A stretch of DNA of 64,000 nucleotides from Mobula hypostoma (Eukaryota), in NCBI RefSeq assembly GCF_963921235.1, contig NC_086108.1:806001-870000 (forward strand), written 5' to 3'. The notes below the pieces were generated by a model. The model searched no databases, had not been told where the DNA came from, and worked only from the letters and a program-made list of their open reading frames with translations. The position numbers and the translations under genes are program-made. Below, piece by piece: positions 29,550 through 64,000 of this stretch (positions are counted from its first letter, which is position 1; each line of letters starts with the position of its first letter).

Positions 29550-30631
29550 GCTGTAAAAATAGGGGACAAGTTCTCCTCTACAATCACTCTGAGCACCGGT
29601 GCCCCACAAGGCTGTGTACTCAGCCCCCTGCTGTACTCACTGTACACCCATGATTATGTAGCCAAGTTTCCATCAAACACAATATATGAGTTTGCTGATG
29701 ACACAAAAATTGTAGGCCATATCTCGGGTACTGATGAGTTTTGAGTACAGAGAGGAAATTAAGAACCTGGTGGCATGGTGCGAAGACAATAACCTATCCC
29801 TCAACGTCAGCAAGACGAAGGAATTGGTTGTTGACTTCAGAAGGAGTAGCGGACCACACGACCCAATTTACATCGGTGGTGCGCAAGTGGAACAGGTCAA
29901 AAGCTTTAAGTTCCTTGGGGTCAATATCACAAATGACCTGACTTGGTCTAACCAAGCAGAGTTCACTGTCAAGAAGGCCCACCAGCGCCTTTACTTTCTG
30001 AGAAAACTAAAGAAATTTGGCCTGTCCCCTAAAACCCTCACTAATTTTTCTAGATGCACCATAGAAAACATTCTTCTAGGGTGCATCATAACCTGGTATG
30101 GAAGTTGTCCTGTCCAAGACTGAAAGAAGCTGCAGAAGATCGTGAACACAGCACAGCACATCACACAAACCAATCTTCCGTCCTTGGACTCACTTTACAC
30201 CGCACGCTGTCGGAGCAGTGCTGCCAGGATAATCAAGGACACGACCCACCCAGCCAACACACTTTTCCTCCCTCTTCCCTCCGGGAGAAGGCTCAGGAGC
30301 TTGAAGACTCGTACGGCCAGATTTGGGAACAGCTTCTTTCCAACTGTGATAAGACTGCTGAACGGATCCTGACCCGGATCTGGGCCATACCCTCCAAATA
30401 TCCGGACCTGCCTCTCGGGTTTTTTGTGCTACCTCACTTTTCATTTTTCTATTTTCTATTTATGATTTATAATTTAAATGTTTATATTTACAAATTTTTA
30501 CTATTTTTAATATTTTTAACATTTAATATTTGTAATCCAGGGAGCGGGAAGGGCAGAATCAAATATCGCTGTGATGATTGTACATTCTAGTATCAATCGT
30601 TTGGCGACAATAATGTATAAAGTATAAAGTA
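29550..30631 (+). mobile_element. Rex1/Babar LINE family B, copy 1, inserted in the hAT
   Basis: [16 protein letters not shown] and a (TATAAAG)n tail; nearly identical to 46967-48040 in inverted orientation. Confidence 0.9.
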
Positions 30632-30873
30632 TTAGTCTCTTGTACGTTATTCTTGTTACACTCCTCAGCTTGTTTATGAAAGAAAGAAGTTAACGTTGTT
30701 TGCTTCGAAGCCATAGGGTTGTTAGAGAGAAAGATTTACTTTTGTATTTGCGAGTAATCCATGGATCACCACAAATGTAGCCTTATTAATACGACTGAGT
30801 GGGAGCAGACAGCAAGGCCCACAGCACTTAGCAGTGTCCGTAAGCAGGTATGAAAATAACAGAAATAAAGCAA

Positions 30874-31538
30874 CACACATCAAAGTTGCTGGTGAATGCA
30901 GCAGGCCAGTCAGCATCTCTAGGAAGAGGTACAGTCGACGTTTCGGGCCGAGACTCTTCGTCAGGACTAACTGAAAGAAGAGCTAGTAAGAGATTTGAAA
31001 GTCGGAGGGGGAGGGGGAGATCTGAAATGATAGGAGAAGACAGGAGGGGGAGGGCAACCTGATGGCATAAACATTGACTTCTCAAACTTCCGCTAATGCC
31101 CCACCTCCCCCTCGTACCCCATCTGTTATTTATTTATATACACACATTCTTTCTCTCTCACTCTCTCTCTCTCCTTTTTCTCCCTCTGTCCCTCTGACTA
31201 TACCCCTTGCTCATCCTCTGGGTTCCCCCCCCCCCGCTTGTCTTTCTCCCCGGACCTCCTGTCCCATGATCCTCTCATATCCCCTTTGCCAATCACCTGT
31301 CCAACTCTTGGCTCCATCCCTCCCCCTCCTGTCTTCTCCTATCATTTTGGATCTCCCCCTCCCCCTCCAACTTTCAAATCTCTTACTAGCTCTTCCTTCA
31401 GTTAGTCCTGCCGGAGGGTCTCGGCCTGAAACGTCGACTGTACCTCTTCCTAGAGATGCTGCCTGGCCTGCTGCGTTCACCAGCAACTTTGATGTGTGTT
31501 GCTTGAATTTCCAGCATCTGCAGAATTCCTCGTGTTTG
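30874..31538 (+). mobile_element. Penelope-like element with inverted pLTR
   Basis: 13-bp TSD AGAAATAAAGCAA (30861-30873 and 31539-31551). ~180-bp inverted repeat (30871-31053 versus ~31318-31502). ORF end QPDGINIDFSNFR* at 31055-31096. Confidence 0.88.
30932..30969 (-). ncRNA. Minimal type I hammerhead ribozyme (Penelope, dimer type)
   Basis: UAGUC CUGACGA AGAGU CUCG GCCC GAAA CG UC GACUG: intact core, helix I AGUC/GACU, and palindromic ACGU in place of helix III. Confidence 0.78.
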
Positions 31539-32569
31539 AGAAATAAAGCAAATAAGCTTTTTACACTTTTAGCCACCTAAGTTGGAGCCATGTAATCAAG
31601 TATGAAACAAGAACGTCTGATGAACGATTGGTAAAGCCACGAATATTGGTGAATATTAGTATCAAAAGCGGTAGGTTGGCAACTCTGCCTCGTACCGTTT
31701 CTCTCACAGAAATGGTTGGACAGGAAGTGTACCTGTGTGTGTGGATACTCACAATATCCTCACACATCGGGTATTACATGGTTAGACCAATACAGATCCT
31801 GTTTAGTCTTTAAGTATATAAAAAGTGAAAGAAGCTTGAATCTTTACAGAAATTATTGTCGTATCTATACAAATAAAAAATGTCGTATTTTGGAAGTGAC
31901 AATTGTTAACCGGGAGAAGAGCAACTATTTGGGAGGTTTGGAAATGTGTTTCATATCGTTCATTTCCTCACTAAATTACTCTTTTTCCTATCAACACAAA
32001 GAGAAAACGAGCCTCGTTCCATGCAACTATAGTTGGTGGAGCTCGGCCAAGGGGTTGATCTGCTATTAATGATAGCTGAAATGAAGTAAAACTAGCTTAT
32101 AGCCTAGAAATGTTGTTTTTTCCCATTTGGCTTGTAAAAATAACTAAATTCACTTTATCCAGATGTAGAAGAGGATTTTGGATGATTACCTTGAATATTT
32201 AATCAAAATCAGGTTGAAGATAAGTGAGCAGTGAATTTTTCTTTCATTATTTTCGACTTTTAACCTTAGGTTTCGATGTTCATTCCTTGCTTAATATAGC
32301 TCCTACCTGGAATCCAATGGTACCCGTTGGAAAGAGCAGAAAAATGCGTACACTTGTGTACAGTCGTCCCTCGGCAGGAGAGAGACTGAAGGTCTGTGAA
32401 ATGGCGGGAGGCTACAGCAGGGAAAACAACGGGTCGAGCGAGGACGAATTTCACAAATACCTAAATAAAAAACAGTCACAGCCCCAGGATTCCACCAAAA
32501 ACGATCAAATATACTATCCTAATGTTATTAGTGGTATTTTCCCCACCAGCCACCACCCCTATCCACAAC

Positions 32570-34300
32570 ATAGTCATAGTCATACTTTATTGATCCCGGG
32601 GGAAATTGGTTTTCGTTACAGTTGCTCCATAAATAATAAACAGTAAGAGAACCATAAATAGTTAAATAGTAATATGTAAATTATGCCAGCAAATTATGAA
32701 ATAAGTCCAGGACCAGCCTATTGGCTCAGGGTGTCTGACCCTCCAAGGGAGGAGTTGTAAAGTTTGATGGCCACAGGCAGGAATGACTTCCTATGATGCT
32801 CTGAGTTGCATCTCGGTGGAATGAGTCTCTGGCTGAATGTACTCCTGTGCCCACCCAGTACATTATGTAGTGGATGGGAGACGTTGTCCAAGATGGCATG
32901 CAACTTGGACAGCATCCTCTTTTCAGACACCATCGTCAGAGAGTCCAGTTCCATTCCCACAACCTCACTGGCATTATGAATGAGTTTGTTGATCCTGTTG
33001 GTGTCTGCTACCCTCAGCCTGCTGCCCCAGCACACAACAGCAAACGCTATCGCACTGGCCACCACAGACTCGTAGAACATCCTCAGGATCGTCCGATAGA
33101 TGTTGAAGGACCTCAGTCTCCTCAGGAAATAGAGATGGCTCTGACCCTTCTTGTAGACAGCCTCAGTGTTCTTTGACCAGTCCAGTTTATTGTCAATTCG
33201 TATCCCCAGGTATTTGTAATCCTCCACCATGACCACACTGACCCCCTGGATGGAAACAGGGGTCACTGGTACCTTAGCCCTCCTCAGGTCTACCACCAGC
33301 TCCTTAGTCTTTTTCACATAAAGCTGCAGATAATTCTGCTCACACCATGTGACAAAGTTTCCTACCGTAGCCCTGTACTCAACCTCATCTCCCTTGCTGA
33401 TGCATCTAACTATGGCAGAGTCATCCGAAAACTTCTGAAGATGACAAGACTCTGTGCAGTAGTTGAAGTCCAAGGTGTAAATGGTGAAGAGAAAGGGAGA
33501 CAAGACAGTCCCCTGTGGAGCCCCAGTGCTGCTGATCACTCTGTCAGACACACAGTGTTGCAAGCACACGTACTGTGATCTGCCAGTCAGGTAATCAGGA
33601 ATCCATGATACCAGGAAAGCATCCACCTGCATCGCTGTCAGCTTCTCCCCCAGCAGAGCAGGGCGGATGGTGTTGAACGCACTGGAGAAGTCAAAAAACA
33701 TGATCCTCACAGTGCTCGCTGGCTTGTCCAGGTAGGCGTAGACACGGTTCAGCAGGTAGACGATGGCATCCTCAACTCCTAGTTGGGGCTGGTAGGTGAA
33801 CTGGAGGGGATCTAAGTGTGGCCTGACCATAGGCCAGAGCAGCTCCAGAACAAGTCTCTCCAGGGTCTTCATGATGTGGGAGGTCAATGCCACCGGTCTG
33901 TAGTCATTAAGGCCGCTGGGGCACGGCGTCTTCGGCACAGGGACGAGGCAGGATGTCTTCCACAGTACAGGAACCCTCCAGAACCTCAGGCTCATGTTGA
34001 ATACATGGCAAAGTACTCCACATAGCTGAGGGGCACAGGCTTTGAGCACCCTGGTACTGACACCATCCGGTCCTGCAGCCTTGCTTGGGTTGAGATGTTT
34101 CAGCTGTCTTCTCACCTATTCAGCTGTGACGCCCACCGTGGTGGTTTCGTGTGGGGAAGGGGTATAGTCATGAGAGCAGGGTGGGGGACTGTGAGGAGGG
34201 GTAGGAGGGGAGAGTGGAGTATGTGTTGGTTGGGGGCCGACAACAGATGGCTCATGTGGGGGATGGGCAGGGGTCACAATGTCAAATCTGTTAAAGAACC
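32570..34300 (-). mobile_element. Rex1/Babar LINE family A, copy 1
   Basis: Uninterrupted 465-aa RT ORF 32718-34115 ([27 protein letters not shown]), (CTATGA)n tail, and upstream FFNRFD reaching ~34300. Confidence 0.95.
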
Positions 34301-46957: not shown

Positions 46958-46966
46958 AAAAGAAAT

Positions 46967-48453
46967 ATACTTTATACTTTATTGTCGCCGAACAATTGAT
47001 GCTAGAAAGTACAATCATCACAGCGATATTTGATTCTGCGCTTCCCGCTCCCTGGTTTTCAAATATTAAATATTTAAATATTTAACATAGTAAAAATCAG
47101 TAACTATTAAAAATTTAAATTATAAATCATAAATAGAAAATAGAAAAATGGAAAGTAAGGTAGTGCAAAAAAACCGAGAGGCAGGTCCGGATATTTGGAG
47201 GGTACGGCCCAGATCCAGGTCAGGATCCGTTCAGCCGTCTCATCACAGTTGGAAAGAAGCTGTTCCCAAATCTGGCCGTACGAGTCTTCAAGCTCCTGAG
47301 CCTTCTCCCGGAGGGAAGAGGGACGAAAAGTGTGTTGGCTGGGTGGGTCGTGTCCTTGATTATCCTGGCAGCACTGCTCCGACAGCGTGCGGTGTAAAGT
47401 GAGTCCAAGGACGGAAGATTGGTTTGTGTGATGTGCTGCACCGTGTTCACGATCTTCTGCAGCTTCTTCCGGTCTTGGACAGGACAACTTCCATACCAGG
47501 TTGTGATGCACCCTAGAAGAATGCTTTCTACGGTGCATCTAGAAAAATTAGTGAGGGTTTTAGGGAACAGGCCAAATTTCTTTAGTTTTCTCAGGAAGTA
47601 AAGGCGCTGGTGGGCCTTCTTGACAGTGAACTCTGCTTGGTTGGACCAAGTCAGGTCATTTGTGATATTGACCCTGAGGAACTTAAAGCTTTTGACCTGT
47701 TCCACTTGCGCACCACCGATGTAAATTGCGTCCTGCGGTCTGCTACTCCTTCTGAAGTCAACAACCAATTCCTTTGTCTTGCTGACATTGAGGGATAGGT
47801 TATTGTCTTCGCACCATGCCACCAGGTTCTTAATTTCCTCTCTGTACTCAAACTCATCATTACCCGAGATACGGCCTACAATTGTTGTGTCATCAGCAAA
47901 CTTATATATTGAGTTTGATGGAAACTTGGCTACACAATCATGGGTGTACAGTGAGTACAGCAGGGGGCTGAGTACACAGCCTTGTGGGGCACCGGTGCTC
48001 AGAGTGATTGTAGAGGAGAGCTTGTCCCCTATTTTTACAGCCTGGGTCCTGTCTGTGAGGAAGTTGAAGATCCAGCTGCAGATCTGAGTGCTAAGGCCCA
48101 GGTTCCGGAGCTTAGGAATCAGTTTATTTGGAATGATGGTATTAAAGGCAGAGCTGTAGTCAATGAAAAGGAGCCTTACGTATGCGTCTTTATTCTCCAG
48201 GTGTTCTAAGGAGGAATGTAGGGCCAGAGAGATGGCATCTGCCATTGACCTGTTGCTCCGGTAGGCGAATTGCAAAGCGTCGAGGTTGACCAGTAGGCTG
48301 TGGTTGATGTGTGCCATAACCAATCTCTCGAAGCACTTCATAGCAATTGATGTCAGAGCCACAGGTGGATAGTCATGCAGGCATGTCACCTTGCTCTTCT
48401 TCAGCACCGGGATTATCATTGCCTTCTTAAAACACGAGGGGATCTTAGACTGA
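46967..48453 (-). mobile_element. Rex1/Babar LINE family B, copy 2
   Basis: Uninterrupted 412-aa ORF 47220-48458 ([17 protein letters not shown]). Confidence 0.95.
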
Positions 48454-48487
48454 AGCAAAGAGCAGTATTAATATTAATTGGATATTT

Positions 48488-50010
48488 ACCCAAGCAAGGC
48501 TGCAGGACGGGATGGTGTCAGTACCAGAGTGCTCAAAGCCTGTGCCCCTCAGCTATGTGGAGTACTTCGTCATGTATTCAACCTGAGCCTGAGGCTCCGG
48601 AAGGTTCCTGTGGAAGACGTCCTGCCTCGTCCCTGTGCCGAAGACGCCGCGCCCCAGCGACCTCAATGACTACAGACCGGTGGCATTGACCTCCCACATC
48701 ATGAAGACCCTGGAGAGACTTGTTCTGGAGCTGCTCCAGCCTATGGTCAGGCCACACTTAGATCCCCTCCAGTTCACCTACCAGCCCCGACTAGGAGTTG
48801 AGGATGCCATCGTCTACCTGCTGAACCGTGTCTACGCCCACCTGGACAAGCCAGTGAGCACTGTGAGGGTCATGTTTTTTGACTTCTCCAGTGCGTTCAA
48901 CACCATCCACCCTGCTCTGCTGGGGGAGAAGCTGACAGCGATGCAGGTGGATGCTTTCCTGGTATCATGGATTCTTGATTACCTGACTGGCAGACCACAG
49001 TACGTGTGCTTGCAACACTGTGTGTCTGACAGAGTGATCAGCAGCACTGGGGCTCCACAGGGGACTGTCTTGTCTCCCTTTCTCTTCACCATTTACACCT
49101 TGGACTTCAACTACTGCACAGAGTCTTGTCATCTTCAGAAGTTTTCTGATGACTCTGCCATAGTTGGATGCATCAGCAAGGGAGATGAGGCTGAGTACAG
49201 GGCTACAGTAGGAAACTTTGTCACATGGTGTGAGCAGAATTATCTGCAGCGTAATGTGAAAAAGACTAAGGAGCTGGTGGTAGACCTGAGGAGGGCTAAG
49301 GTACCAGTGACCCCTGTTTCCATCCAGGGGGTCAGTGTGGACATGGTGAAGGATTACAAATACCTGGGGATACAAATTGACAATAAACTGGACTGGTCAA
49401 AGAACACTGAGGCTGTCTATAAGAAAGGTCAGAGCCGTCTCTATTTCTTGAGGAGACTGAGGTCCTTTAACATCTGCCGGACGATGCTGAGGATGTTCTA
49501 CGAGTCTGTGGTGGCCAGTGCTATTATGTTTGCTGTTGTGTGCTGGGGCAGCAGGCTGAGGGTAGCAGACACCAACAGAATCAACAAACTCATTCGTAAG
49601 GCCAGTGATGTTGTGGGGATGGAACTGGACTCTCTGACGGTGGTGTCTGAAAAGAGGATGCTGTCTAAGTTGCATGCCATCTTGGACAATGTCTCCCATC
49701 CACTACATAATGTACTGGTTGGGCACAGGAGTACATTCAGCCAGTAACTCATTCCACCGAGATGCAGCACAGAGCGTCAGAGGAAGTCATTCCTGCCTGT
49801 GGCCATCAAACTTTACAACTCCTCCCTTGGAGGGTCAGACACCCTGAGCCAATAGGCTGGTCCTGGACTTATTTCATAATTTACTGGCATAATTTACATA
49901 TTACTATTTAACTATTTATGGTTTTATTACTATTTATTATTTATGATGCAACTGTAACGAAAACCAATTTCCCCCTGGGATCAATAAAGTATGACTATGA
50001 CTATGACTAT
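48488..50010 (+). mobile_element. Rex1/Babar LINE family A, copy 2
   Basis: ORF 48635-49747 is nearly identical to 32718-34115, with a (CTATGA)n tail. Confidence 0.95.
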
Positions 50011-50674: not shown

Positions 50675-51088
50675 GGACCACAACTGTGTTGTGGTCTGGA
50701 GGCTCGCACGCCTCAATGATCCAGGCAGCTATGGTGACTGGAATCGGGGCTTTTTGCTGTGGCTCTTGGCAGTGCCACCCATATTATACAGGTTAAAGGG
50801 TAGAGGCCAGACTAAGAGTGCTCCACTGGTCCTCCGGGTTTGGGAGGTTCAGCTCAGGGCTAACAACCGTGGCTGGTCAAACAAAACTGTTATAGAAACA
50901 GCAAACAATAATCTTCAAGATGCATGCAACAGTATTCCTGAGTCTCCACCCGGGACTTGCATGACTGACAGTAGTGAAAACCGAGAGGAAGCTACGGACA
51001 CGATGAATGAAACCCTGAACACCACCAGAGACGGAGACCCTTCACTGCTGCTCTCAATGCTAGCAGGTGTAATGAGCAGTACGTAAGG
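50675..51088 (+). mobile_element. Probable RTE/RTE-X-derived bipartite non-autonomous element
   Basis: RTE-type 5' UTR motifs (ttgtggt...aatgatcc...agctatg; gggctaacaacc) fused to a short 3' end finishing in gtaag. Assignment rests on recall of the family only. Confidence 0.5.
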
Positions 51089-51473
51089 ACACATAATGAT
51101 CTTACTGCCTGTAAGGAACCCCTCCTCCTGTAGGGATTGCACCATTCAATTCTCTCATTTCCTCCAACTGCCTTGTATTCTCTGTGGACACCTTTGCAAC
51201 ATCTTCCATCCACCGTCAGAGAGGAGGTACAGGAGCCTGAGGTGCTGCAGTGAACATTTTGAGAACAGCTATTTCGCCCACACCCCCACACCCAGCATCA
51301 TCAATCATAGAACAGCACGGGAATAGGCCACTCAGCCTACAGCATTGAGCCAAAAATGCAAATCAGTACACCCAAACACTAATCCCTCCTACCTACACCA
51401 TGTCCACATCCCTCCATCTTCCTCACATCCACGTGCCTCTCCAAATGTCTCTGCCCCTACCACCAGACCAGGC

Positions 51474-52000
51474 ATCCGCCCTACGCCCGGATCTTGTACT
51501 GTGGTCAACGGAAGACAAGAAAATAATTCTGGTTGAGCTGACTGTGCTGTGGGAAGAGGGATGGGAAGAGGCCCACGAGAGAAAGGCCTTGAAGTACCAG
51601 CCCTTAGTGCAGGAGTGTAAAGACGAGGGATGGTAGGCATGGTTGTTCCCTGTGGAGATCGGCTGCAGAGGTTTCCCAGTCAAATCAGCATGGCTGTTGT
51701 TGTCAGATCTGGGCCTGGACGAAAGGAGCAAAAAACAAGTAGCTCGTAGGATGGGGGAAGAGGCAGAAGGAGCCTCTTGTTGGATTTGGAGTAGGCGAGA
51801 GGAGGGGAGCTGGAAGCCAGGAGCAGATGGGCAGTGATTTGGCCACCACTGCTGGCCCACCAACTGGAGAGTGTTGTGGTTAAGGGTCGAAACACTCGGT
51901 GAAGGTTGGGAACCACCTGATGACATCTGCTTCTGGCTGAAGGCTACAGTTACCTTATAAAGTAACTGGAGAATGCACCCTAACAGGTGTTTGTAACAAG
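51474..52000 (+). mobile_element. Hero/R2-type non-LTR retrotransposon 3' end (restriction-like endonuclease plus 3' UTR), inside a CR1 remnant
   Basis: LRPDLVLWS..IILVELTVLWEE..AHERKALKY..GW*AWLFPVEIGCRGF is a PD-(D/E)xK RLE domain of Hero type. Stop at 51837, then a structured 3' UTR. Confidence 0.88.
51860..51928 (+). ncRNA. Candidate pseudoknotted/permuted hammerhead-like RNA with kink-turn
   Basis: GAGUGU/ACACUC (helix III), GUGGUU/AACCAC (helix I), GUU, GAAA and CUGAUGA all sit in correct register. K-turn GGU-GAA/GGA is closed by CCAACU/GGUUGG. Confidence 0.6.
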
Positions 52001-52224
52001 TGTCCACTCGATCTGCCTCTCATAACCTCGATCAGATCTCCCCTCAGCTTCCAACACTCCAGAGAAAACAACCCAAGTTTATCCAGCCTCTCATGATAGC
52101 ATATAATTCTGAACACTAACTTATTATTCTGCTTTTCCATTATTTATTTATTTTTGTCACTAATGGTAATTTTTATGTCTTCCACAGTGCTCCTGCAACA
52201 AAACAAGAACATTTCACAAATGCA

Positions 52225-52475
52225 GGCAGCATGTTACTGTAGCAGTCCATGTAACACTATTACACTCCTACTGACCCAAGTTCAACCCTACTGCCCTCTG
52301 TTAAGGAGTATGCACATTCTCCCCGTCACTATTTACGTTTCCTCCAGATCCTCCATTTTCCTCCCACATTCCAAAGACGTATGGCTTAGTAATTTAGTCG
52401 GTCACATGGGTGTAAGCGGGCGGTGCAGGCTCATCGGATCAGAAGGGCCTGTTTCTGTGTTGATTCTCTAAATTA
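52225..52475 (+). mobile_element. tRNA-derived SINE (V-SINE/HE1-like), degenerate
   Basis: B-box-like gttcaacc, core ttcctcccacattccaaagac, and CR1-like tail gaagggcctgtttctgtg. Confidence 0.55.
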
Positions 52476-52514
52476 AAAATGTTAGTGATGACAAACTGAT
52501 TCTGAATCTTATTA

Positions 52515-53640
52515 CATAGAAACATAGGAAATAGGTGCAGGAGTAGGCCATTCGGCCCTTCGATCCTGCACCACCATTCAGTATGATCATGGCTGATTAT
52601 CCAACTCAGAACCCTGTACCAGCCTTCCCTCCATACCCTCTGATCCCTTTAGCCACAAGGGCCATATCTAACTCCCTCTTAAATATAGCCAATGAACTGG
52701 CCTCAACTGTTTCCTGTGGCAGAGAATTCCACAGATTCACCACTCTCTGTGTGAAAAAGTTTTTCCTAATCTCGGTCCTAAAAGGCTTCCCCTTTATCCT
52801 CAAACTGTGACCCCTCGTTCTGGACTTTCCCAACATCGGGAACAATCTTCCTACATCTAGCCTGTCCAATCCCTTTAGGATTTTATACGTTTCCATCAGA
52901 TCCCCCCTCAATCTTCTAAATTCCAGAGAGTATAAGCCTAGTCGATCCAGTCTTTTATCATATGAAAGTCCTGCCATCCCAGGAATCAATCTGGTGAACC
53001 TTCTTTGTACTCCCTCTATGGCAAGAATGTCTTTCCTCAGATTAGGGGACCAAAACTGCACACAATACTCCAGGTGTGGTCTCACCAAGGCCTTGTACAA
53101 CTGCAGTAGTACCTCTCTGCTCCTGTACTCGAATCCTCTCGCTATAAATGCCAGCATACCATTTGCCTTTTTCACCGCCTGCTGTACCTGCATGCCCACT
53201 TTCAATGACTGGTGTATAATGACACCCAGGTCTTGTTGCACCTCCCCTTTTCCTAATCGGCCACCATTCAGATAATAATCTGTTTTCCTGTTTTTGCCAC
53301 CGAAGTGGATAACCTCACACTTATCCACATTAAATTGCATCTGCCATGAATTTGCCCACTCACCTAACCTATCCAAGTCACCCTGCATCCTCTTAGCATC
53401 CTCCTCACAGCTAACACTGCCACCCAGCTTCGTGTCATCCGCAAACTTGGAGATGCTGCATTTAATTCCCTCATCCAAGTCATTAATATATATTGTAAAC
53501 AACTGGGGTCCCAGCACTGAGCCTTGCGGTACCCCACTAGTCACCGCCTGCCATTCTGAAAAGGTCCCGTTTATTCCCACTCTTTGCTTCCTGTCTGCTA
53601 ACCAATTCTCCATCCACATCAATACCTTACCCCCAATACC
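52515..53640 (-). mobile_element. Young CR1 with open RT C-terminal half
   Basis: 338-aa ORF 52606-53622 ([20 protein letters not shown]). Confidence 0.95.
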
Positions 53641-57749: not shown

Positions 57750-60700
57750 ACTGCAGAGATGGGATGGGGATTGTTATTGTTACTGTATTTTACTGTGAGG
57801 GAGGGGATGGGGATTGTTATTGTTACTGTATTTTACGGTGGGGTAGGGGATGATGATTGTTATTGTTACTGTATTTTACGGTGGGGGAGGGCATGGGGAT
57901 TGTTATTGTTACTGTATTTTACTGAGGGGGAGGGGATGGGGATTGTTATTGTTACTGTATTTTACTGTGGGGGAGGGGATGCGGATTGTTATTGTTACTG
58001 TATTTTACTGTGGGGACGGGAATGGGGATTGTTATTGTTACTGTATTTTCCTGAGGGAGAGGGGATGGGGATTGTTATTGTTACTGTATTTTACTGTGGG
58101 GGGGGACGGGGATTGTTATTGTTACTGTATTTTACTGAGGGGGAGGGGATGGGGATTGTTATTGTTACTGTATTTTACTGTGGGGAGGGGATGGGGACTG
58201 TTATTGTTACTGTATTTTACTGTGAGGGAGGGGATGGGGATTGTTATTGTTATTGTTACTGTATTTTACTGTGGTGAGGGGATGGGAATTGTTATTGTTA
58301 CTGTATTTTACTGTGGGGAAGGGATGGGGATTGTTATTGTTACTGTATTTTACTGTGGGGGAGGGGATGGGGATTGTTATTGTTACTGTATTTTACTGTG
58401 GGGAGGGAATGGGGACTGTTATTCTTACTGTATTTTACTGTGAGGGAGGGGATAGGGATTGTTATTGTTACTGTATTTTACTGTGGGGGAGGGGATGGGG
58501 ACTGTTATTGTTACTGTATTTTACTGTGGGGGGGACGGGGATTGTTATTGTTACTGTATTTTACTGAGGGGGAGGGGATGGGGATTGTTATTGTTACTGT
58601 ATTTTACTGTGGGGAGGGGATGGGGACTGTTATTGTTACTGTATTTTACTGTGAGGGAGGGGATGGGGATTGTTATTGTTATTGTTACTGTATTTTACTG
58701 TGGTGAGGGGATGGGAATTGTTATTGTTACTGTATTTTACTGTGGGGAAGGGATGGGGATTGTTATTGTTACTGTATTTTACTGTGGGGGAGGGGATGGG
58801 GATTGTTATTGTTACTGTATTTTACTGTGGGGAGGGAATGGGGACTGTTATTCTTACTGTATTTTACTGTGAGGGAGGGGATAGGGATTGTTATTGTTAC
58901 TGTATTTTACTGTGGGGGAGGGGATGGGGATTGTTATTGTTACTGTATTTTACTGTGGGGGGGGACGGGGATTGTTATTGTTACTGTATTTTACTGAGGG
59001 GGAGGGGATGGGGATTGTTATTGTTACTGTATTTTACTGTGGGGAGGGGATGGGGACTGTTATTGTTACTGTATTTTACTGTGAGGGAGGGGATGGGGAT
59101 TGTTATTGTTATTGTTACTGTATTTTACTGTGGTGAGGGGATGGGAATTGTTATTGTTACTGTATTTTACTGTGGGGAAGGGATGGGGATTGTTATTGTT
59201 ACTGTATTTTACTGTGGGGGAGGGGATGGGGATTGTTATTGTTACTGTATTTTACTGTGGGGAGGGAATGGGGACTGTTATTCTTACTGTATTTTACTGT
59301 GAGGGAGGGGATAGGGATTGTTATTGTTACTGTATTTTACTGTGGGGGAGGGGATGGGGACTGTTATTGTTACTGTATTTTACTGTGGGGAGGGGATGGG
59401 GACTGTTATTGTTACTGTATTTTACTGTGAGGGAGGGGACGGGGATTGTTATTGTTACTGTATTTACTGTGGGTGAGGGGATGGGGATTGTTATTGTTAC
59501 TGTATTTTACTGTGGGGGAGGGGACAGGGATTTTTATTGTTACTCTATTTCACTGAAGCGGCGGGAATGGGGATTGTTATTGTTACTGTATTTTACTGTG
59601 GGGGGGGACGGGGATTGTAATTGTTACTGTTTTTTACTGTGGGGGAGGGGATGGGGATTGTTATTTTTACTGTATTTTACTGTGGGGGAGGGGATTGGTA
59701 TTGTTATTGTTAATGTATTTTAAAGTGGGGGAGGGGATGGGGATTGTTATTGTTACTGTATTTTCCTGAGGGGGAGGGGATGGGGATTGTTATTGTTACT
59801 GTATTTTACTGAGGGGGAGGGGATGGGGATTGTTTTTGTTACTGTATTTTACTGTGGGGAGGGGATGGGGACTGTTATTGTTACTGTATTTTACTGTGAG
59901 GGAGGGGATGGGGATTGTTATTGTTATTGTTACTGTATTTTACTGTGGGGGAGGGGATGGGGATTGTTATTGTTACTGTATTTTACTGTGGGGAGGGGAT
60001 GGGGATTGTTATTGTTACTGTATTTTACTGTGGGGGAGGGGATGGGGATTGTTATTATTACTGTATTTTACTGTGGTGAGGGGATGGGGATTGTTATTGT
60101 TACTGTATTTTACTGTGGGGAGGGGATGGGGATTGTTATTGTTACTGTATTTTACTGTGGGGGAGGGAATGGTGATTGTTATTGTTACTGTATTTTACTG
60201 TGGGGAGGGGATGGGGACTGTTATTGTTACTGTATTTTACTGTGAGGGAGGGGATAGGGATTGTTATTGTTACTGTATTTTACTGTGGGGGAGGGGATGG
60301 GGACTGTTATTGTTACTGTATTTTACTGTGGGGAGGGGGTGGGGACTGTTATTGTTACTGTATTTTACTGTGAGGGAGGGGAAGGGGATTGTTATTGTTA
60401 CTGTATTTACTGTGGGTGAGGGGATGGAGATTGTTATTGTTACTGTATTTTACTGTGGGGGAGGGGACAGGGATTTTTATTGTTACTCTATTTCACTGAA
60501 GCGGCGGGAATGGGGATTGTTATTGTTACTGTATTTTACTGTGGGGGAGGGAATGGGGATTGCTATTGTTACTGTATTTTACTGTGGGAGGGGATGGGGA
60601 TTGTTATTGTCACTGTATTTTACTGTGGGGAGGGGACGGGGATTGTCATTGTTACTGTTTTTTACCGTGGGGGAGGGGATGGGGATTGTTATTGTTACTG

Positions 60701-63700
60701 TATTTTACTGTGGGGAGGGGATGGGGACTGTTATTGTTACTGTATTTTACTGTGAGGGAGGGGATGGGGATTGTTATTGTTACTGTATTTTCCAGAGGGG
60801 GAGGGGATGGGGATTGTTATTGTTACTGTATTTTACTGTGGGGAGGGGATGGGGACTGTTATTGTTACTGTATTTTACTGTGAGGGAGGTGATGGGGATT
60901 GTTATTGTTATTGTTACTGTATTTTACTGTAGGGGAGGGGATGGGGACTGTTATTGTTACTGTATTTTACTGAGGGGGAGGGGATGGGGATTGTTATTGT
61001 TACTGTATTTTACTGTGGGGAGGGGATGGGGACTGTTATTGTTACTGTATTTTACTGTGGGGAGGGGATGGGGATTGTTATTGTTAGTGTATTTTACTGT
61101 GGGGGAGGGGATGGGGATTGTTATTGTTACTGTATTTTACTGTGGTGAGGGGATGGGGATTGTTATTGTTACTGTATTTTACTGTGGGGGAAGGGACGGG
61201 GATTGTTATTGTTACTGTATTTTACTGTAGGGGAGGGGATGGGGACTGTTATTGTTACTGTATTTTACTGTGGGGAGGGGATGGGGACTGTTATTGTTAC
61301 TGTATTTTACTGTGGGGAGGGGATGGGGATTGTTATTGTTAGTGTATTTTACTGTGGGGGAGGGGATGGGGATTGTTATTGTTACTGTATTTTACTGTGG
61401 TGAGGGGATGGGGATTGTTATTGTTACTGTATTTTACTGTGGGGGAAGGGACGGGGATTGTTATTGTTACTGTATTTTACTGTGGGGGAGGGGATGGGGA
61501 TTGTTATTGTTACTGTATTTTACTGTAGGGGGGACAGGGATTGTTATTGTTGCTGTATTTTACTGTGGGGGGGACGGGGATTGTTATTGTTACTATATTT
61601 TACTGAGGGAGAGGGGATGGGGATTGTTATTGTTACTGTATTTTACTGTGGGATAGGGGATGAGGATTGTTATTCTTACTGTATTTTACTGTGGGGAGGG
61701 GATGGGGATTGTGATTGTTACTGTATTTTACTGTGGGGAGGGGATGGGGATTGTTATTGTTACTGTATTTTACTGTGGGGGAGGGGATGGGGACTGTTAT
61801 TGTTACTGTATTTTACTGTGGGGAGGGGATGGGGATTGTTATTGTTAGTGTATTTTACTGTGGGGGAGGGGATGGGGATTGTTATTGTTACTGTATTTTA
61901 CTGCGGGGGAGGGAACGGGGATTGTTATTGTTACTGTATTTACTGTGGGGGAGGGGATGGGATTGTTATTGTCACTGTATTTTACTGAGGGGGAGTGGAT
62001 GGGGATTGTTATTGTTACTGTATTTTAATGTGAGGGAGGGGATGGGGATTGTTATTGTTACTGTATTTTACTGTGGGGGGGACGGGGATTGTTATTGTTA
62101 CTGTATTTTACTGTGGGGAGGGGACGGGGATTGTTATTGTTACTGTTTTTTACTGTGGGGGAGGGGATCGGGATTGTTATTGTTACTCTATTTTACTGTG
62201 GGGGAGGGGATTGGTATTGTTATTGTTATTGTTACTGTATTTTACTGTGGGGAGGGGATGGGGATTGTTATTGTTACTGTATTTTACTGTGGGGGAGGGG
62301 ATGGGGATTGTTATTGTTACTGTATTTTACTGTGGGGAGGGGATGGGGATTGTTATTGTTACTGTATTTTACTGTGAGGGAGGGGATGGGGATTGTTATT
62401 GTTACTGTATTTTACTGAGGGGGAGGGGATGGGGATTGTTATTGTTAATGTATTTTAAAGTGGGGGAGGGGATGGGGATTGTTATTGTTACTGTATTTTA
62501 CTGTGGGGGAGGGGATGGGGATTGTTATTGTTACTGTATTTTACTGTGGAGAGGGGATGGGGATTGTTATTGTTACTGTATTTTACTGTGGGGGAGGGGA
62601 TGGCGATTGTTATTGTTACTGTATTTTACTGAGGGGGAGGGGATGGGGATTGTTATTGTTACTGTATTTTACTGAGGGGGAGGGGATGGGAATTGTTATT
62701 GTTACTGTATTTTGCTGTGGGGGGGGACGGGGATTGTTATTGTTACTGTATTTTACTGTGGAGGGGACGGGGATTGTTATTGTTACTGTATTTTACTGAG
62801 GGAGAGGGGATGGGGATTGTTATTGTTACTGTATTTTCCTGAGGGAGAGGGAAAGGGGATTATTATTGTTACTGTATTTTACTGTGGGGAGGGGATGGGG
62901 ATTGTTATTGTTACTATATTTTACTGTGGGGAGGGGACGGGGATTGTTATTGTTACTGTATTTTACTTTGGGGGTGGGGATGGGGATTGTTATTGTAACT
63001 GTATTTTACTGTGGGGGAGGGGATGGGGATTGTTATTGTTACTGTATCTTACTGTGGTGAGGGGATGGGAATTGTTATTGTTACTGTATTTTACTGTGGG
63101 GAGGGGATGGGGATTGTTATTGTTACTGTAATTTACTGTGGGGAGGGGATGGGGATTGTTATTGTTACTGTATTATACTGAGGGGGGGATGGAGATTGTT
63201 ATTGTTACTGTATTTTACTGTGGGGAGGGAAGGGGGACTTTTATTGTTACTGTATTTTACTGTGAGGGAGGGAATGGGGATTGTTATTGTTACTGTATTT
63301 TACTGTGGGGGAGGGGATGGGGATTGTTATTGTTACTGTATTTTACTGTGGGGGACGGGATGGCGATTGTGATTGTTACTGTATTTTACTGTGGGGGAGG
63401 GGATGGGGATTGTTATTGTTACTGTATTTTACCGTGGGGGAGGGAATGGGGATTGTTATTGTTACTGTATTTTACTGTGGGGGAGGGTCAGGGATTGTTA
63501 TTATTACTGTATTTTACTGTGGGGGATGGAATGGTGATTGTGATTGTTACTGTATTTTACTGCGGGGGAGTGCATGGGGATTGTGATTGTTACTGTATTT
63601 TACTGTGGGTGAGGGGATGGTATTTGTTATTGTTACTGTATTTTACTGTGGGGGAGGGGATGGGGATTGTTATTGTTACTGTATTTTACCGTGGGGGAGT

Positions 63701-64000
63701 GGATGGGGTTTGTTATTGTTACTGTATTTTACTGTGGGGAAGGGGATCGGGATTGTTATTGTTACTGTATTTTACTGTGGGGGAGGGGATGGGGATGTTA
63801 TTGTTACTGTATTTTACCGTGGGGGAGGGTCAGGGATTGTTATTGTTACTGTATTTAACTGAGGGGGAGGGGATGGGGATTGTTATTGTTACTGTAGTTT
63901 ACTCAGGGGGAGGGCATGGGGACTGTTATTGTTACTGTATTTTACTGAGGGGAGGGGATGGGGATTGTTATTGTTACCGTATTTTACCGTGGGGGAGGGG
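57750..64000. repeat. Minisatellite, ~41-43-bp unit, >6.2 kb, continuing off the window
   Basis: Consensus GGGGATTGTTATTGTTACTGTATTTTACTGTGGGGGAGGGGAT, roughly 145 units. Confidence 0.99.

What the first reader, a model, noticed from the sequence alone, without database searches (positions are those of the whole stretch)
51841..51995. Hero retrotransposon 3' UTR contains a scrambled, pseudoknotted hammerhead core organised by a kink-turn
Seen in the sequence: all conserved hammerhead core nucleotides are present and in register. Helix III is G51869-U51874 paired with A51892-C51897 (6/6). The NUH triplet is GUU at 51873-51875. Helix I is GUGGUU 51876-51881 paired with AACCAC 51911-51916 (6/6), followed directly by CUGAUGA 51917-51923. 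GAAA lies at 51889-51892. Helix II is weak (CAUCU 51924-51928 with GGGUC 51884-51888, with a C-C mismatch at 10.1/11.1). The strand order [III,UH,I]-[II,GAAA,III]-[I,CUGAUGA,II] is not a circular permutation of types I, II or III, so it must form as a pseudoknot or dimer. Helix III continues into a standard k-turn: 3-nt bulge GGU 51898-51900, then G.A, A.G, A.G pairs (3b.3n = A.G, as in Kt-7), closed by CCAACU 51860-51865 with GGUUGG 51904-51909. Hairpins flank it at 51841-51857 and 51947-51968. Established: the hammerhead core and k-turn consensus; ribozymes in R2 are HDV-like and at the 5' end. Inference: the k-turn bends the 3' tail back to complete the core, giving a new hammerhead topology that might be switched by L7Ae-family proteins (e.g. 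15.5K) or used for 3' processing or ORF-protein recognition. The two imperfections (GUU, CA) could be CpG decay from GUC and CG. I recall teleost Hero 3' UTRs having the same layout with different helix sequences, but I could not verify that. I know of no description of this motif.
Basis: partly seen in the sequence, partly recalled or inferred. Interest (0 to 1): 0.92.

Follow-up and report, generated by a model that had tools for sequence, protein, structure and literature searches.

The report
Rearranged hammerhead RNA in a retrotransposon tail
The end of a Hero-like jumping gene carries a conserved, knotted version of the self-cutting hammerhead RNA, wired in a way close to but not the same as a rearranged form published in 2023, and it probably trims transcripts of head-to-tail copies.

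Summary
The motif is real. CUGAUGA, GAAA, the U-H site, helices I and III, and the k-turn with its closing helix sit exactly where stated. In 300 shuffles of the window no layout with 6-bp helices appeared.

It lies at the ORF end and 3' UTR of a 5'-truncated copy (51474-52001) of an R2-superfamily, Hero-like LINE with more than 1500 candidate copies in this genome. A structure model found the same domain in 75 of 80 relatives from metagenomes with 36-75% protein identity. The 5 misses are contigs that end before it. All helices covary: 92% of cells paired against 65% in shuffles and 35-39% with slid partners.

- The true helix II is 51854-58 with 51884-88, which gives the canonical G10.1-C11.1 pair. 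The strand after CUGAUGA pairs with the last codons (51821-29).
- A hairpin at 51830-53 holds the stop codon.

The S-G-C strand order is published as the type-SGC hammerhead (Eckert et al. 2023, PMC10085705). New here are the split CUGANGA block, the k-turn link, the overlap with the stop codon, and the LINE host. Cleavage is untested. Head-to-tail copies are common, which suggests processing of read-through transcripts.

The parts
51474..52001 (+). 5'-truncated copy of a ~3.7-kb Hero-like (R2-superfamily) non-LTR retrotransposon. The 3' end is at about 52001 and there is no poly(A).
   Evidence: more than 1500 candidate copies, the best 94-96% identical; 30 copies share the 3' boundary, and the window copy diverges upstream of about 51474; full-length copies are about 3.7 kb. 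RT (PF00078) and zf-RVT (PF13966).
51474..51837 (+). Remnant of the ORF's C-terminal PD..E..K endonuclease-like region. It is broken by an in-frame TAG at 51634-36. The natural stop is TGA at 51835-37.
   Evidence: invariant P..D, ELTVPWE and K..KY motifs in 16 aligned proteins.
51821..51829 (+). S1, 5' strand. These are the last sense codons of the ORF. It pairs with 51924-51932.
   Evidence: helix 1: 9 pairs, all with changes on both sides, 87.6% of cells paired. One search, on the MAFFT alignment: 76.1%.
51830..51853 (+). P0 hairpin: arms 51830-36 and 51847-53, loop 51837-46. It holds the stop codon, and its loop carries the palindrome UGGCCA.
   Evidence: helices 2-4: 92-100% paired with changes on both sides; a palindrome of 6 nt or more in 42 of 58 non-redundant relatives.
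51854..51858 (+). Helix II, 5' strand (positions 10.1-10.5, GGCCC). It pairs with 51884-51888.
   Evidence: helix 5, which was not part of the search model: 94.0% paired, and 4 of 5 pairs change on both sides. The 10.1-11.1 pair is G-C in 54, G-U in 6 and other in 11.
51860..51865 (+). Bridging (NC) helix, 5' strand. It pairs with 51904-51909.
   Evidence: helix 6: 6 of 6 pairs change on both sides, 93.5% paired.
51866..51868 (+). K-turn, non-bulged strand (3n G, 2n G, 1n A).
   Evidence: strict consensus in 31 of 52.
51869..51875 (+). Helix III 5' strand (16.6-16.1) plus H17 at 51875. The predicted cleavage lies between 51875 and 51876.
   Evidence: helix 7: 93.1% paired; A15.1-U16.1 is UA in 65 of 68. 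H17 is C in 22, U in 21, A in 9 and G in 0 of 52. C is the majority in this family.
51876..51881 (+). Helix I, 5' strand (1.1-1.6). It is followed by the 2-nt linker AA at 51882-83.
   Evidence: helix 8, which was not part of the search model: 6 of 6 pairs change on both sides, 90.3% paired.
51884..51897 (+). Block G: helix II 3' strand at 51884-88, G12 A13 A14 at 51889-91, and helix III 3' strand at 51892-97.
   Evidence: GAAA in 47 of 52..
51898..51903 (+). K-turn, bulged strand: L1-L3 GGU, then G (1b), A (2b), A (3b).
51904..51909 (+). Bridging (NC) helix, 3' strand.
   Evidence: helix 6.
51911..51923 (+). Helix I 3' strand (51911-16) and CUGAUGA (C3-A9, 51917-23).
   Evidence: CUGANGA in 49 of 52 rows found by the model.
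51924..51932 (+). S1', directly after A9. It pairs with the ORF end at 51821-29.
   Evidence: helix 1. One search shows that it does not pair with 51884-88.
51933..52001 (+). 3' tail with the hairpin 51947-51968. In many copies of this genome the tail is joined directly to the 5' end of another copy.
   Evidence: hairpin. (junction ...AACAAGT|AATCTCTGG... spanned by 40 of 40 scored hits).

Best explanation
Window 51821-51932 is a conserved RNA domain of about 110 nt that builds a hammerhead catalytic core from strands in a non-circularly permuted order.

Strand order, 5' to 3':
1. S1.
2. The P0 hairpin, which holds the stop codon.
3. Helix II 5' strand.
4. The bridging helix 5' strand.
5. The k-turn.
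6. Helix III 5' strand, then H17 (the cleavage site), then helix I 5' strand.
7. A 2-nt linker.
8. Helix II 3' strand, GAAA, and helix III 3' strand.
9. The k-turn bulge.
10. The bridging helix 3' strand.
11. Helix I 3' strand and CUGAUGA.
12. S1'.

Relation to the published form. This is the published type-SGC hammerhead with one further rearrangement. The strand 10.x and the bridging strand that follows it have moved from behind CUGANGA to the front. There the k-turn fuses them to helix III. The resulting chain break between A9 and G10.1 is closed by two extra helices, S1 and P0, which overlap the last codons and the stop codon.

Inferred from the anatomy:
- The k-turn folds the extension of helix III back so that it ties the far ends of helices I and II together. 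This replaces the loop-loop contact of ordinary hammerheads.
- The RNA cuts itself between 51875 (C in most copies, U in this decayed one) and 51876. That leaves a 2',3'-cyclic phosphate on the ORF part and a 5'-OH on a 126-nt tail.
- A terminating ribosome would unfold S1 and P0.

Inferred role. Copies very often lie head to tail, so a tail carrying this domain sits about 126 nt upstream of the next copy's 5' end. The ribozyme would free that copy's RNA from read-through or multimeric transcripts. R2's HDV-like ribozyme and Perere-3's twister variant do this at their 5' ends, and hammerheads sit in the repeated terminal regions of Penelope-like elements.

Shown here: the fold and its conservation, and the head-to-tail arrangement. 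Not shown: cleavage and the role.
For: Sequence and chance.

Distribution. Model R1 contained only S1, P0, the bridging helix and helix III. It hits the window and 75 of 80 relatives, once each, always on the + strand just behind the ORF, and nowhere else in 265,730 bases on both strands. The 5 misses are contigs that end at most 44 nt after the ORF.

Covariation:
- MAFFT-only alignment A2: 83.5% of cells paired, against 62.2% in shuffles and 33-41% with slid partners.
- Model alignment A3: 92.1% against 64.8% and 35-39%. The covariation score is 0.624 against 0.191, and 0 of 500 shuffles reach it.
- Helices I and II were not in the model. They pair at 90.3% and 94.0%, with changes on both sides in 6 of 6 and 4 of 5 pairs.

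Hammerhead hallmarks in 52 non-redundant rows found by the model:
- CUGANGA in 49.
- GAAA in 47.
- U16.1 in 50.
- H17 is never G (C 22, U 21, A 9).
- A15.1-U16.1 and G10.1-C11.1 are conserved and do not covary.

Precedent. Type-SGC hammerheads cleave in vitro at the predicted site, and all four of their stems are needed (PMC10085705, sections 14 and 18). HRIMA-1 already carries an extra U between A9 and G10.1 (supplement part 18).

Head-to-tail arrangement:
- 13 of 43 metagenome loci with at least 700 nt behind the motif have the N-terminus of another such ORF on the same strand 160-640 nt downstream.
- In this genome 40 of 40 scored hits span a 161-nt junction of 3' end and 5' end.
- 26 of 40 sampled 5' ends coincide with such a junction.
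- In 26 of 39 junction copies the upstream fragment is long enough (start at or before 51819) to hold the whole domain.

Weak hint of cleavage. Of the 19 upstream fragments that end within 51743-51922, 2 start at 51876 or 51877, the predicted 5' end of the cleavage product. The binomial p is about 0.02, with the 1-nt tolerance chosen after seeing the data.
Against: - No cleavage assay was done, and there is no usable RNA evidence.
- A chain break between A9 and G10.1 filled by two helices has no tested precedent, so catalysis may be impaired.
- Every inserted copy necessarily came from RNA that was intact across the site. Of 39 copies sampled by their last 100 nt, 0 start at 51876.
- Cutting the element's own 3' UTR would remove the tail that target-primed reverse transcription is expected to need.
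- Conservation of the core nucleotides is also what a purely structural, protein-binding fold would show.
- No Rfam hammerhead model matches, even at E up to 10.
- The k-turn is strict in only 31 of 52 relatives, and four loci (L084, L107, L111, L114) lack the bulged strand altogether.
- In the 2 of 4 full-length copies with a visible complete 5' end that lack an upstream tail (L047, L049), the 5'-processing role cannot apply.
Confidence: 0.6

Rival explanations
1. A non-cleaving structural scaffold. The hammerhead-like knot is kept as the recognition and loading site for the element's own reverse transcriptase at the start of target-primed reverse transcription, or for co-translational capture in cis at the stop codon. 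Catalysis would be lost or suppressed.
For: - It sits where R2-group proteins bind their RNA. An R2 3' UTR pseudoknot bound by the protein is reported in the abstract of PMC12222951 (search listing only).
- All genomic copies derive from uncut RNA, and 0 of 39 start at 51876.
- S1 and P0 overlap the ORF end.
- The unusual break at A9|G10.1.
Against: - Every catalytic position is kept, including H17 never being G in 52 rows.
- The non-covarying A15.1-U16.1 and G10.1-C11.1 pairs are kept.
- The closest relatives in architecture, type-SGC RNAs, do cleave.
- A binding role and a cleaving role do not exclude each other.
Confidence: 0.25
2. A cleavage and ligation module that circularises the RNA. 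Cutting at two successive domains of a multimeric transcript gives a unit whose two ends carry complementary halves of the knot (S1, II, bridging helix, III, I). The ends re-pair and are joined. Reverse transcription round the circle then produces the partial tandem copies.
For: - The two cleavage products stay linked by about 26 base pairs (the anatomy).
- Precise 3' end to 5' end junctions, with upstream fragments of variable length, are common.
- Circular RNAs with hammerheads are the published model for retrozymes (abstracts of PMC7229834 and PMC7761336, search listing).
Against: - All 30 copies end at the same base, about 52001, as expected for a linear template.
[quoted passage not shown] Those papers (Bibillo and Eickbush 2002, 2004) were seen only as references in PMC7650587.
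- No circular RNA data were available.
Confidence: 0.1
3. An ordinary type-SGC hammerhead, with helix II formed by the strand right after CUGAUGA (51924-28) and 51884-88.
For: In the window, 4 of the 5 positions can pair, two of them as G-U.
Against: - 47.9% of cells paired against 48.5% in shuffles, with covariation at shuffle level, and 49 of 53 sequences unpaired at 10.1/11.1.
- The same strand covaries with 51821-29, and 51884-88 covaries with 51854-58.
Confidence: 0.02
4. A chance resemblance inside a repeat, without function.
For: The window copy itself is decayed: it has GUU, and its ORF is broken by a stop at 51634-36.
Against:: conservation and compensatory change across relatives with as little as 36% protein identity, and no comparable hit in shuffles.
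Confidence: 0.01

Closest known systems
Type-SGC hammerhead ribozymes (HRIMA-1 motif and variants; Eckert, Friedrich, Weinberg and Weinberg, NAR 2023, PMC10085705)
   Same: - The same order of the cleavage-site block, the GAAA block and CUGANGA.
- A short linker from helix I straight into helix II (2-5 nt here, typically 3 there).
- A fourth helix that joins the segment between III-3' and I-3' to the strand following 10.x.
- The same conserved core.
   Different: - There, the 5' strand of helix II and the bridging strand follow CUGANGA. Here they lie upstream of helix III and are fused to it by a k-turn.
- So the CUGANGA block, which the authors assumed cannot be interrupted, is split between A9 and 10.1, and the gap is closed by S1 and P0.
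- Their sequences come from IMG/M metagenomes and metatranscriptomes found through hairpin-ribozyme neighbours.
- Their main text does not mention k-turns, and mentions retrotransposons and eukaryotes only in unrelated passages.
- Four contig prefixes of my loci are absent from their supplement.
Type-CSG hammerhead (same paper; two sequences, cleave in vitro)
   Same: It is a cyclic rotation of S-G-C in which helix II's 5' strand precedes the cleavage-site block, as here.
   Different: There the whole block (I-3', CUGANGA, II-5') is at the 5' side. Here only II-5' is, and I-3' with CUGANGA stays at the 3' side.
Hammerheads of Penelope-like elements and retrozymes (Cervera and de la Pena 2014, PMC4209133; 2020, PMC7229834; abstracts seen in the listing)
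   Same: A hammerhead sits in the terminal region of a retroelement that is often found as partial tandems, so that a copy of the ribozyme lies upstream of the coding part.
   Different: Those are type I hammerheads of normal connectivity, many of which act as dimers. Their host elements have a GIY-YIG endonuclease or are non-autonomous. Here the host is an autonomous R2-superfamily LINE.
5' ribozymes of non-LTR retrotransposons: HDV-like in R2 and others (Eickbush 2010 and Ruminski 2011, seen as references) and twister variants of Perere-3 (Liu et al. 2021, PMC8501958, abstract read)
   Same: A self-cleaving RNA that belongs to a LINE and frees its RNA from a longer co-transcript.
   Different: They belong to different ribozyme classes and sit at the element's own 5' end. 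Here the domain belongs to the 3' end and reaches an upstream position only through head-to-tail copies.
Kink-turn (Kt-7 type; consensus recalled, no paper read)
   Same: A 3-nt bulge followed by G.A and A.G pairs between a canonical helix and a non-canonical helix. In the window 3b.3n is A.G.
   Different: It is used here to fold a hammerhead's helix III back on the core. Protein binding was not tested. 21 of 52 relatives depart from the strict consensus.

Membership tests
Hammerhead ribozyme (catalytic core) | C3 U4 G5 A6 N7 G8 A9 next to helix I | tested here: met
   CUGANGA in 49 of 52 non-redundant rows found by the model. In the first set of 53 the motif was a selection criterion, so that set is not counted.
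Hammerhead ribozyme (catalytic core) | G12 A13 A14 between helices II and III, the A15.1-U16.1 pair, and H17 not G | tested here: met
   GAAA in 47 of 52, U16.1 in 50 of 52, and H17 G in 0 of 52. UA in 65 of 68 cells.
Hammerhead ribozyme (catalytic core) | Helices I, II and III around the core, kept by compensatory change, with G10.1-C11.1 | tested here: met
   helix I 90.3%, helix II 94.0%, helix III 93.1% paired, with changes on both sides in 6/6, 4/5 and 5/6 pairs. G10.1-C11.1 is GC in 54 and GU in 6 of 71.
Hammerhead ribozyme (catalytic core) | Site-specific self-cleavage 3' of H17 that gives a 2',3'-cyclic phosphate and a 5'-OH | not testable with these tools
   Needs transcription and a gel. 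Only a weak genomic hint: 2 of 19 truncated upstream fragments start at 51876 or 51877.
Hammerhead families in Rfam 15 | A match to a curated covariance model | tested here: not met
   No hammerhead hit at E up to 10 in 51000-52600, nor at E up to 5 in a full-length copy. Models with the classic strand order would not be expected to align.
Type-SGC hammerhead (Eckert et al. 2023) | 5'-to-3' order: cleavage-site block, GAAA block, CUGANGA | tested here: met
Type-SGC hammerhead (Eckert et al. 2023) | Block C uninterrupted: the 5' strand of helix II directly follows CUGANGA (0-1 nt) | tested here: not met
   (at chance level), against (helix II is formed with 51854-58, upstream of the cleavage-site block).
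Type-SGC hammerhead (Eckert et al. 2023) | A fourth stem that ties helices I and II, and a short I-to-II linker | tested here: met
   Bridging helix 93.5% paired, 6 of 6 pairs covary. Linker AA in the window.
Kink-turn | Canonical helix, 3-nt bulge, G.A and A.G pairs, non-canonical helix | tested here: met
   Window. Relatives: 31 of 52 strict. 1b is G in 47 of 50 and 2b is A in 49 of 50.
Kink-turn | Sharp kink, and binding by L7Ae-family proteins | not testable with these tools
   No RNA 3D modelling or binding assay was available.
Hero clade of R2-superfamily non-LTR retrotransposons | A single ORF with RT, a CCHC zinc knuckle and a C-terminal PD-(D/E)XK endonuclease | tested here: met
   PF00078 and PF13966. 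Conserved C..C..H..C, RHD, P-D, ELTVPWE and K..KY columns.
Hero clade of R2-superfamily non-LTR retrotransposons | Placement of the RT within the HERO clade on a tree with Repbase references | not tested
   No Repbase sequences were at hand. The host range of homologues (teleosts, amphioxus, bivalves) fits the HERO entries listed in PMC7650587 (sea urchin, amphioxus, Tetraodon). Sources name some homologues 'R2' polyprotein.

The most novel reading that the evidence does not exclude
This is a further natural connectivity of the hammerhead, with the CUGANGA block itself split and the fold closed by a k-turn. It would be an ancient, integral organ of Hero-clade LINEs in fishes, amphioxus and molluscs. 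It would couple three things in one 110-nt knot:
- translation termination, because S1 and P0 cover the last codons and the stop codon;
- RNA dimerisation, through a covarying palindromic loop on P0 that resembles a retroviral dimer initiation site;
- reversible self-cleavage.
Together these would generate the multimeric or circular templates behind the element's head-to-tail insertions.
Probability: 0.3. Interest if true: 0.9.

Novelty: new variant of a known kind. Interest (0 to 1): 0.8.

Why it matters
- It would be the first hammerhead tied to an autonomous R2-superfamily LINE. It is present in animal genomes in thousands of copies.
- It is a natural counter-example to the working rule that the CUGANGA block cannot be interrupted. 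That rule guided the published searches for permuted ribozymes, so other split forms may have been missed.
- The k-turn offers a concrete answer to a question left open in the 2023 paper: how the far end of helix III can be joined to the helix that bridges I and II.
- The overlap with the stop codon, the palindromic loop and the frequent head-to-tail copies make ribozyme function in LINE replication directly testable with one short RNA.

Tried and rejected
- Rfam: nothing relevant at loose thresholds.
- RNA evidence: no RNA holder was listed by the look-up of sequencing runs. Read laying gave contigs only, which cannot show ends.
- One 120-nt contig of run X2 ends exactly at 51876. Position 51875 is polymorphic (C, T or A), and I judge that an assembly graph would break there, so I give it no weight.
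I did not try it another way, so other Hero families of this genome were not surveyed.
- The test for a pile-up of 5' truncations at the cleavage site in ordinary copies gave 0 of 39. The four truncations seen were at 51781, 51834, 51850 and 51895.
- A generic 'best hairpin' statistic on the 3' tail did not separate real from shuffled sequence: 38 of 59 with a stem of at least 6, against 55% of shuffles.
- MAFFT split the far half of helix I (35% paired). This was an alignment artefact, removed.
- Earlier findings of this scan held nothing on this sequence or topic.
- Literature searches for Hero, R2-like or non-LTR elements together with hammerhead, k-turn or permutation found no prior description of this element-ribozyme pair. 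Subscription-only papers are outside that library.
Full report
**What is at the coordinates.**
- GAGUGU (51869-74) with ACACUC (51892-97);
- GUU at 51873-75;
- GUGGUU (51876-81) with AACCAC (51911-16);
- CUGAUGA at 51917-23 and GAAA at 51889-92;
- a k-turn signature: GGA at 51866-68 opposite GGU-GAA at 51898-903;
- a closing helix: CCAACU (51860-65) with GGUUGG (51904-09).

A script that looks for this strand order (III-5', U-H, I-5' / GAAA, III-3' / I-3', CUGANGA) finds only this site in the 64-kb window on both strands. In 300 block shuffles it finds 0.12, 0.02 and 0 sites per window with helices of at least 4, 5 and 6 bp. CUGAUGA alone is not unusual: 18 matches against 12.4 expected.

**The host element.**
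- The stretch 51474-52001 is a 5'-truncated copy of a repeat with more than 1500 first-look candidates in the window's own 3.48-Gb genome. The 39 best matches other than the window itself are 94-96% identical.
- Thirty copies share the same 3' boundary at about 52001, without a poly(A) tail. The window copy loses similarity upstream of about 51474.
- Full-length copies are about 3.7 kb.
- They encode a reverse transcriptase (PF00078), a zinc-binding zf-RVT motif (PF13966) and a C-terminal domain with conserved P-D, ELTVPWE and K..KY columns. This is the make-up of R2-superfamily elements.
- Homologous proteins are annotated in teleosts, amphioxus and bivalves, some under the name R2 polyprotein. 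That host range fits the HERO entries listed in PMC7650587 (passages). I did not place the RT on a tree, so 'Hero' remains a likely label and is not tested.
- The ORF ends at TGA 51835-37. In the window copy it is already broken by TAG at 51634-36.
- At 51875 the family majority is C: 16 C, 13 T and 1 G of 30 copies. C is also the majority in the contigs of all 4 runs laid.

**Relatives.**
- A scan of metagenome contigs with an alignment of the C-terminal domain returned 80 loci with 36-75% protein identity.
- Simple pattern scripts already showed CUGANGA 70-110 nt behind the stop codon in most of them, with helices I and III of quite different sequence.
- I aligned 53 non-redundant sequences with MAFFT (A2) and built a covariance model from four nested helices only (R1).
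- The model found the domain in the window and in 75 of the 80 loci. It hit once per source, always on the coding strand right behind the ORF, and nowhere else in 265,730 bases on both strands.
- The five loci without a hit are contigs that stop at most 44 nt after the ORF.

**Revised anatomy.**
- The strand just after CUGAUGA (51924-32) does not pair with 51884-88. It pairs with the last codons of the ORF (51821-29); I call this helix S1.
- The partner of 51884-88 (GGGUC) is 51854-58 (GGCCC). This gives the canonical G10.1-C11.1 pair.
- Between S1 and helix II lies a hairpin, P0 (51830-36 with 51847-53), that contains the stop codon.

The full order is: S1, P0, II-5', bridging helix 5', k-turn, III-5', H17, I-5', AA, II-3', GAAA, III-3', k-turn bulge, bridging helix 3', I-3', CUGAUGA, S1'.

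**Tests of the anatomy.**
- MAFFT alignment, which is not fitted to any structure: 83.5% of cells paired, against 62.2% in shuffles and 33-41% when partners are slid.
- Model-based alignment A3: 92.1% against 64.8% and 35-39%. The covariation score is 0.624 against 0.191, and 0 of 500 shuffles reach it.
- Helices I and II were not in the model, so their scores do not lean on it. They pair at 90.3% and 94.0%, with changes on both sides in 6 of 6 and 4 of 5 pairs.
So is the hairpin 51841-57: 58.9% against 59.6%.
- In 52 non-redundant rows found by the model (not selected on the motifs), CUGANGA is kept in 49, GAAA in 47 and U16.1 in 50. H17 is C in 22, U in 21, A in 9 and never G.
- A15.1-U16.1 and G10.1-C11.1 are conserved without covarying, as in classic hammerheads.
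- The strict k-turn consensus holds in 31 of 52. Four loci lack the bulged strand.
- Caveat: the sequences are related by descent, so the shuffle counts are not probabilities. The slid-partner control does not suffer from this.

**What is known.**
- No Rfam family matches.
- Full-text searches that paired hammerhead with Hero, NeSL, non-LTR, k-turn or permutation terms found no description of this element-ribozyme pair.
- They did find Eckert et al. 2023 (PMC10085705). I read sections 13, 14, 15 and 18, one part of the supplement, and term searches of it.
- That paper defines three blocks: S (cleavage site), G (GAAA) and C (CUGANGA with its flanking strands). It reports natural type-SGC hammerheads (407 HRIMA-1 sequences and 176 variants) and two type-CSG sequences, all of which cleave in vitro at the predicted site.
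- In type SGC a linker of about 3 nt joins helix I to helix II. A fourth stem pairs the segment between III-3' and I-3' with the strand that follows helix II's 5' strand.
- The present RNA has all of this. The difference is that the module 'II-5' plus bridging strand' sits in front of block S and is fused to helix III through the k-turn. In effect the RNA is a type-SGC hammerhead opened between A9 and G10.1 and closed at its old ends.
- The authors assumed that blocks cannot be interrupted, and here block C is. They also left open how the end of helix III can connect directly to the bridging stem. Here a k-turn does it.
- Their main text does not mention k-turns. It mentions retrotransposons and eukaryotes only in unrelated passages. 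Four contig prefixes of my loci are absent from their supplement.

**Evidence on function.**
- Direct RNA evidence could not be had.
- Of 39 copies sampled by their last 100 nt, 35 run on past 51752. Four are truncated, at 51781, 51834, 51850 and 51895. None starts at 51876. Inserted copies therefore come from RNA that was intact across the site.
- Head-to-tail arrangement turned out to be common.
  - 13 of 43 metagenome loci with enough downstream sequence carry the N-terminus of another such ORF on the same strand 160-640 nt behind the domain.
  - In this genome the copy in L048 has 272 nt of 3' end joined directly to a full-length 5' end.
  - All 40 scored hits to a 161-nt probe across that junction span it at 94-100% identity.
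  - 26 of 40 sampled 5' ends coincide with such junction hits.
- In the 39 junction copies other than L048, the upstream fragment runs past 51734 in 20 and stops inside the last 260 nt in 19. Twenty-six are long enough to hold the whole domain.
- Two of the 19 stops are at 51876 and 51877, the predicted 5' end of the cleavage product. The binomial p is about 0.02, with the 1-nt tolerance chosen afterwards. Three more lie 4-7 nt upstream, and two of those are one duplicated locus. I count this as a weak hint only.
- Many full-length copies therefore have a complete copy of the domain about 126 nt upstream of their 5' end. That is the position from which R2's HDV-like ribozyme and Perere-3's twister variant process co-transcripts (references; abstract). 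It is also the arrangement known for hammerheads in Penelope-like elements (abstracts).

**A further feature.**
- The apex of P0 carries a perfect palindrome of at least 6 nt in 42 of 58 non-redundant sequences. Shuffles give a mean of 12.2 and a maximum of 26 in 1000.
- The palindromes differ in sequence: UGAUCA 22, UGGCCA 11, GACGUC 6, and UGUACA, UCAUGA and AGUACU once each.
- Changes that keep self-complementarity suggest loop-loop pairing between two RNAs.
- In the GACGUC group part of the palindrome may belong to an inner stem, so that group is less clear.
- Dimerisation could help end-to-end template jumps, which would give the precise tandem junctions. This is inference.

**Most likely mechanism.**
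- The domain folds into a hammerhead active site. The k-turn bends the extension of helix III back so that the bridging helix and the 2-nt linker hold helices I and II together.
- The RNA cuts itself after C51875. I put this at about 0.6-0.65.
- Its main use would be to release unit RNAs from read-through or multimeric transcripts of head-to-tail copies. I put this at about 0.35.
- Because S1 and P0 cover the last codons and the stop codon, a terminating ribosome would unfold the domain. This could delay cutting of the element's own 3' UTR. This is inference.
- Main rival: the fold serves only as a protein-recognition scaffold (0.25).
- A cleavage-ligation cycle that makes circular templates is possible (0.1).

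**Limits.**
- No cleavage assay, no RNA ends and no 3D model were available.
- The organisms behind the metagenome loci are unknown.
- Genome searches score only the best 40 candidates, so all the frequencies above are samples biased toward the query.
- The clade assignment is untested.

Noticed in passing
window 51837-51846 (P0 loop); the same position in L051-L130: The loop of the stop-codon hairpin carries a 6-8-nt palindrome whose sequence changes between relatives while staying self-complementary (UGAUCA, UGGCCA, UGUACA, UCAUGA, AGUACU, UUGGCCAA). It is present in 42 of 58 sequences, against 12.2 expected. It looks like a kissing-loop dimerisation signal.
   Followed up: partly
L048:3779-3939 (- strand); 40 places in the own genome; L054, L055, L058, L059, L067, L068, L070, L078, L097, L104, L107, L113, L127: Copies are very often joined head to tail at a precise junction of 3' end and 5' end. 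The upstream copy is usually cut short at a variable point. The same arrangement occurs in 13 of 43 metagenome relatives.
   Followed up: yes
L048:3739-3858 (- strand), the 5' end of the full-length element; also behind the 3' tail in L055, L059, L067, L068, L070, L074, L104, L112: The first ~100 nt of the element hold a conserved motif with a repeated small hairpin, CCAG-GAAAGA-CUGG (..CCAGUGAC(U)UCCAGGAAAGACUGGAUG..), kept in distant relatives. There is no Rfam match. It may be a 5' UTR signal for the protein or for a promoter.
   Followed up: no
L084, L107, L111, L114 (alignment A3): One group of relatives lacks the k-turn's bulged strand (about 7 nt missing after helix III) and has extra bases (UAUUAAA or AUUA) on the other strand. 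This is a different way of making the turn, or these are dead copies.
   Followed up: no
L097 and L113: Two related loci read UUGAAGA instead of CUGANGA, that is, U at C3. This would turn the C3-G8 pair into a wobble pair.
   Followed up: no
L053 and L054 (one contig of 9102 nt): Two elements that differ clearly from each other (60% and 58% identity to the query) lie about 3.7 kb apart on the same strand of one contig. Tandems can therefore join different family members. Many metagenome contigs that hold these elements are 3.6-4.0 kb long, about one unit.
   Followed up: no
window 57755-64000: A long array of 42-43-nt tandem repeats (96 copies reported) with a very strong G-over-C skew of +0.72 to +0.73.
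   Followed up: no
window 29550-34090 and 46966-49978: Inverted duplication, 94-96% complementary, of several kb that carry other LINE reverse-transcriptase fragments (ORFs at 47220-48467 on the - strand and 48593-49747 on the + strand).
   Followed up: no
window 51947-51968 and the same place in 30 genomic copies: In the majority of copies the tail hairpin is a perfect 20-nt palindrome. The window copy has one G-to-A change in it.
   Followed up: no
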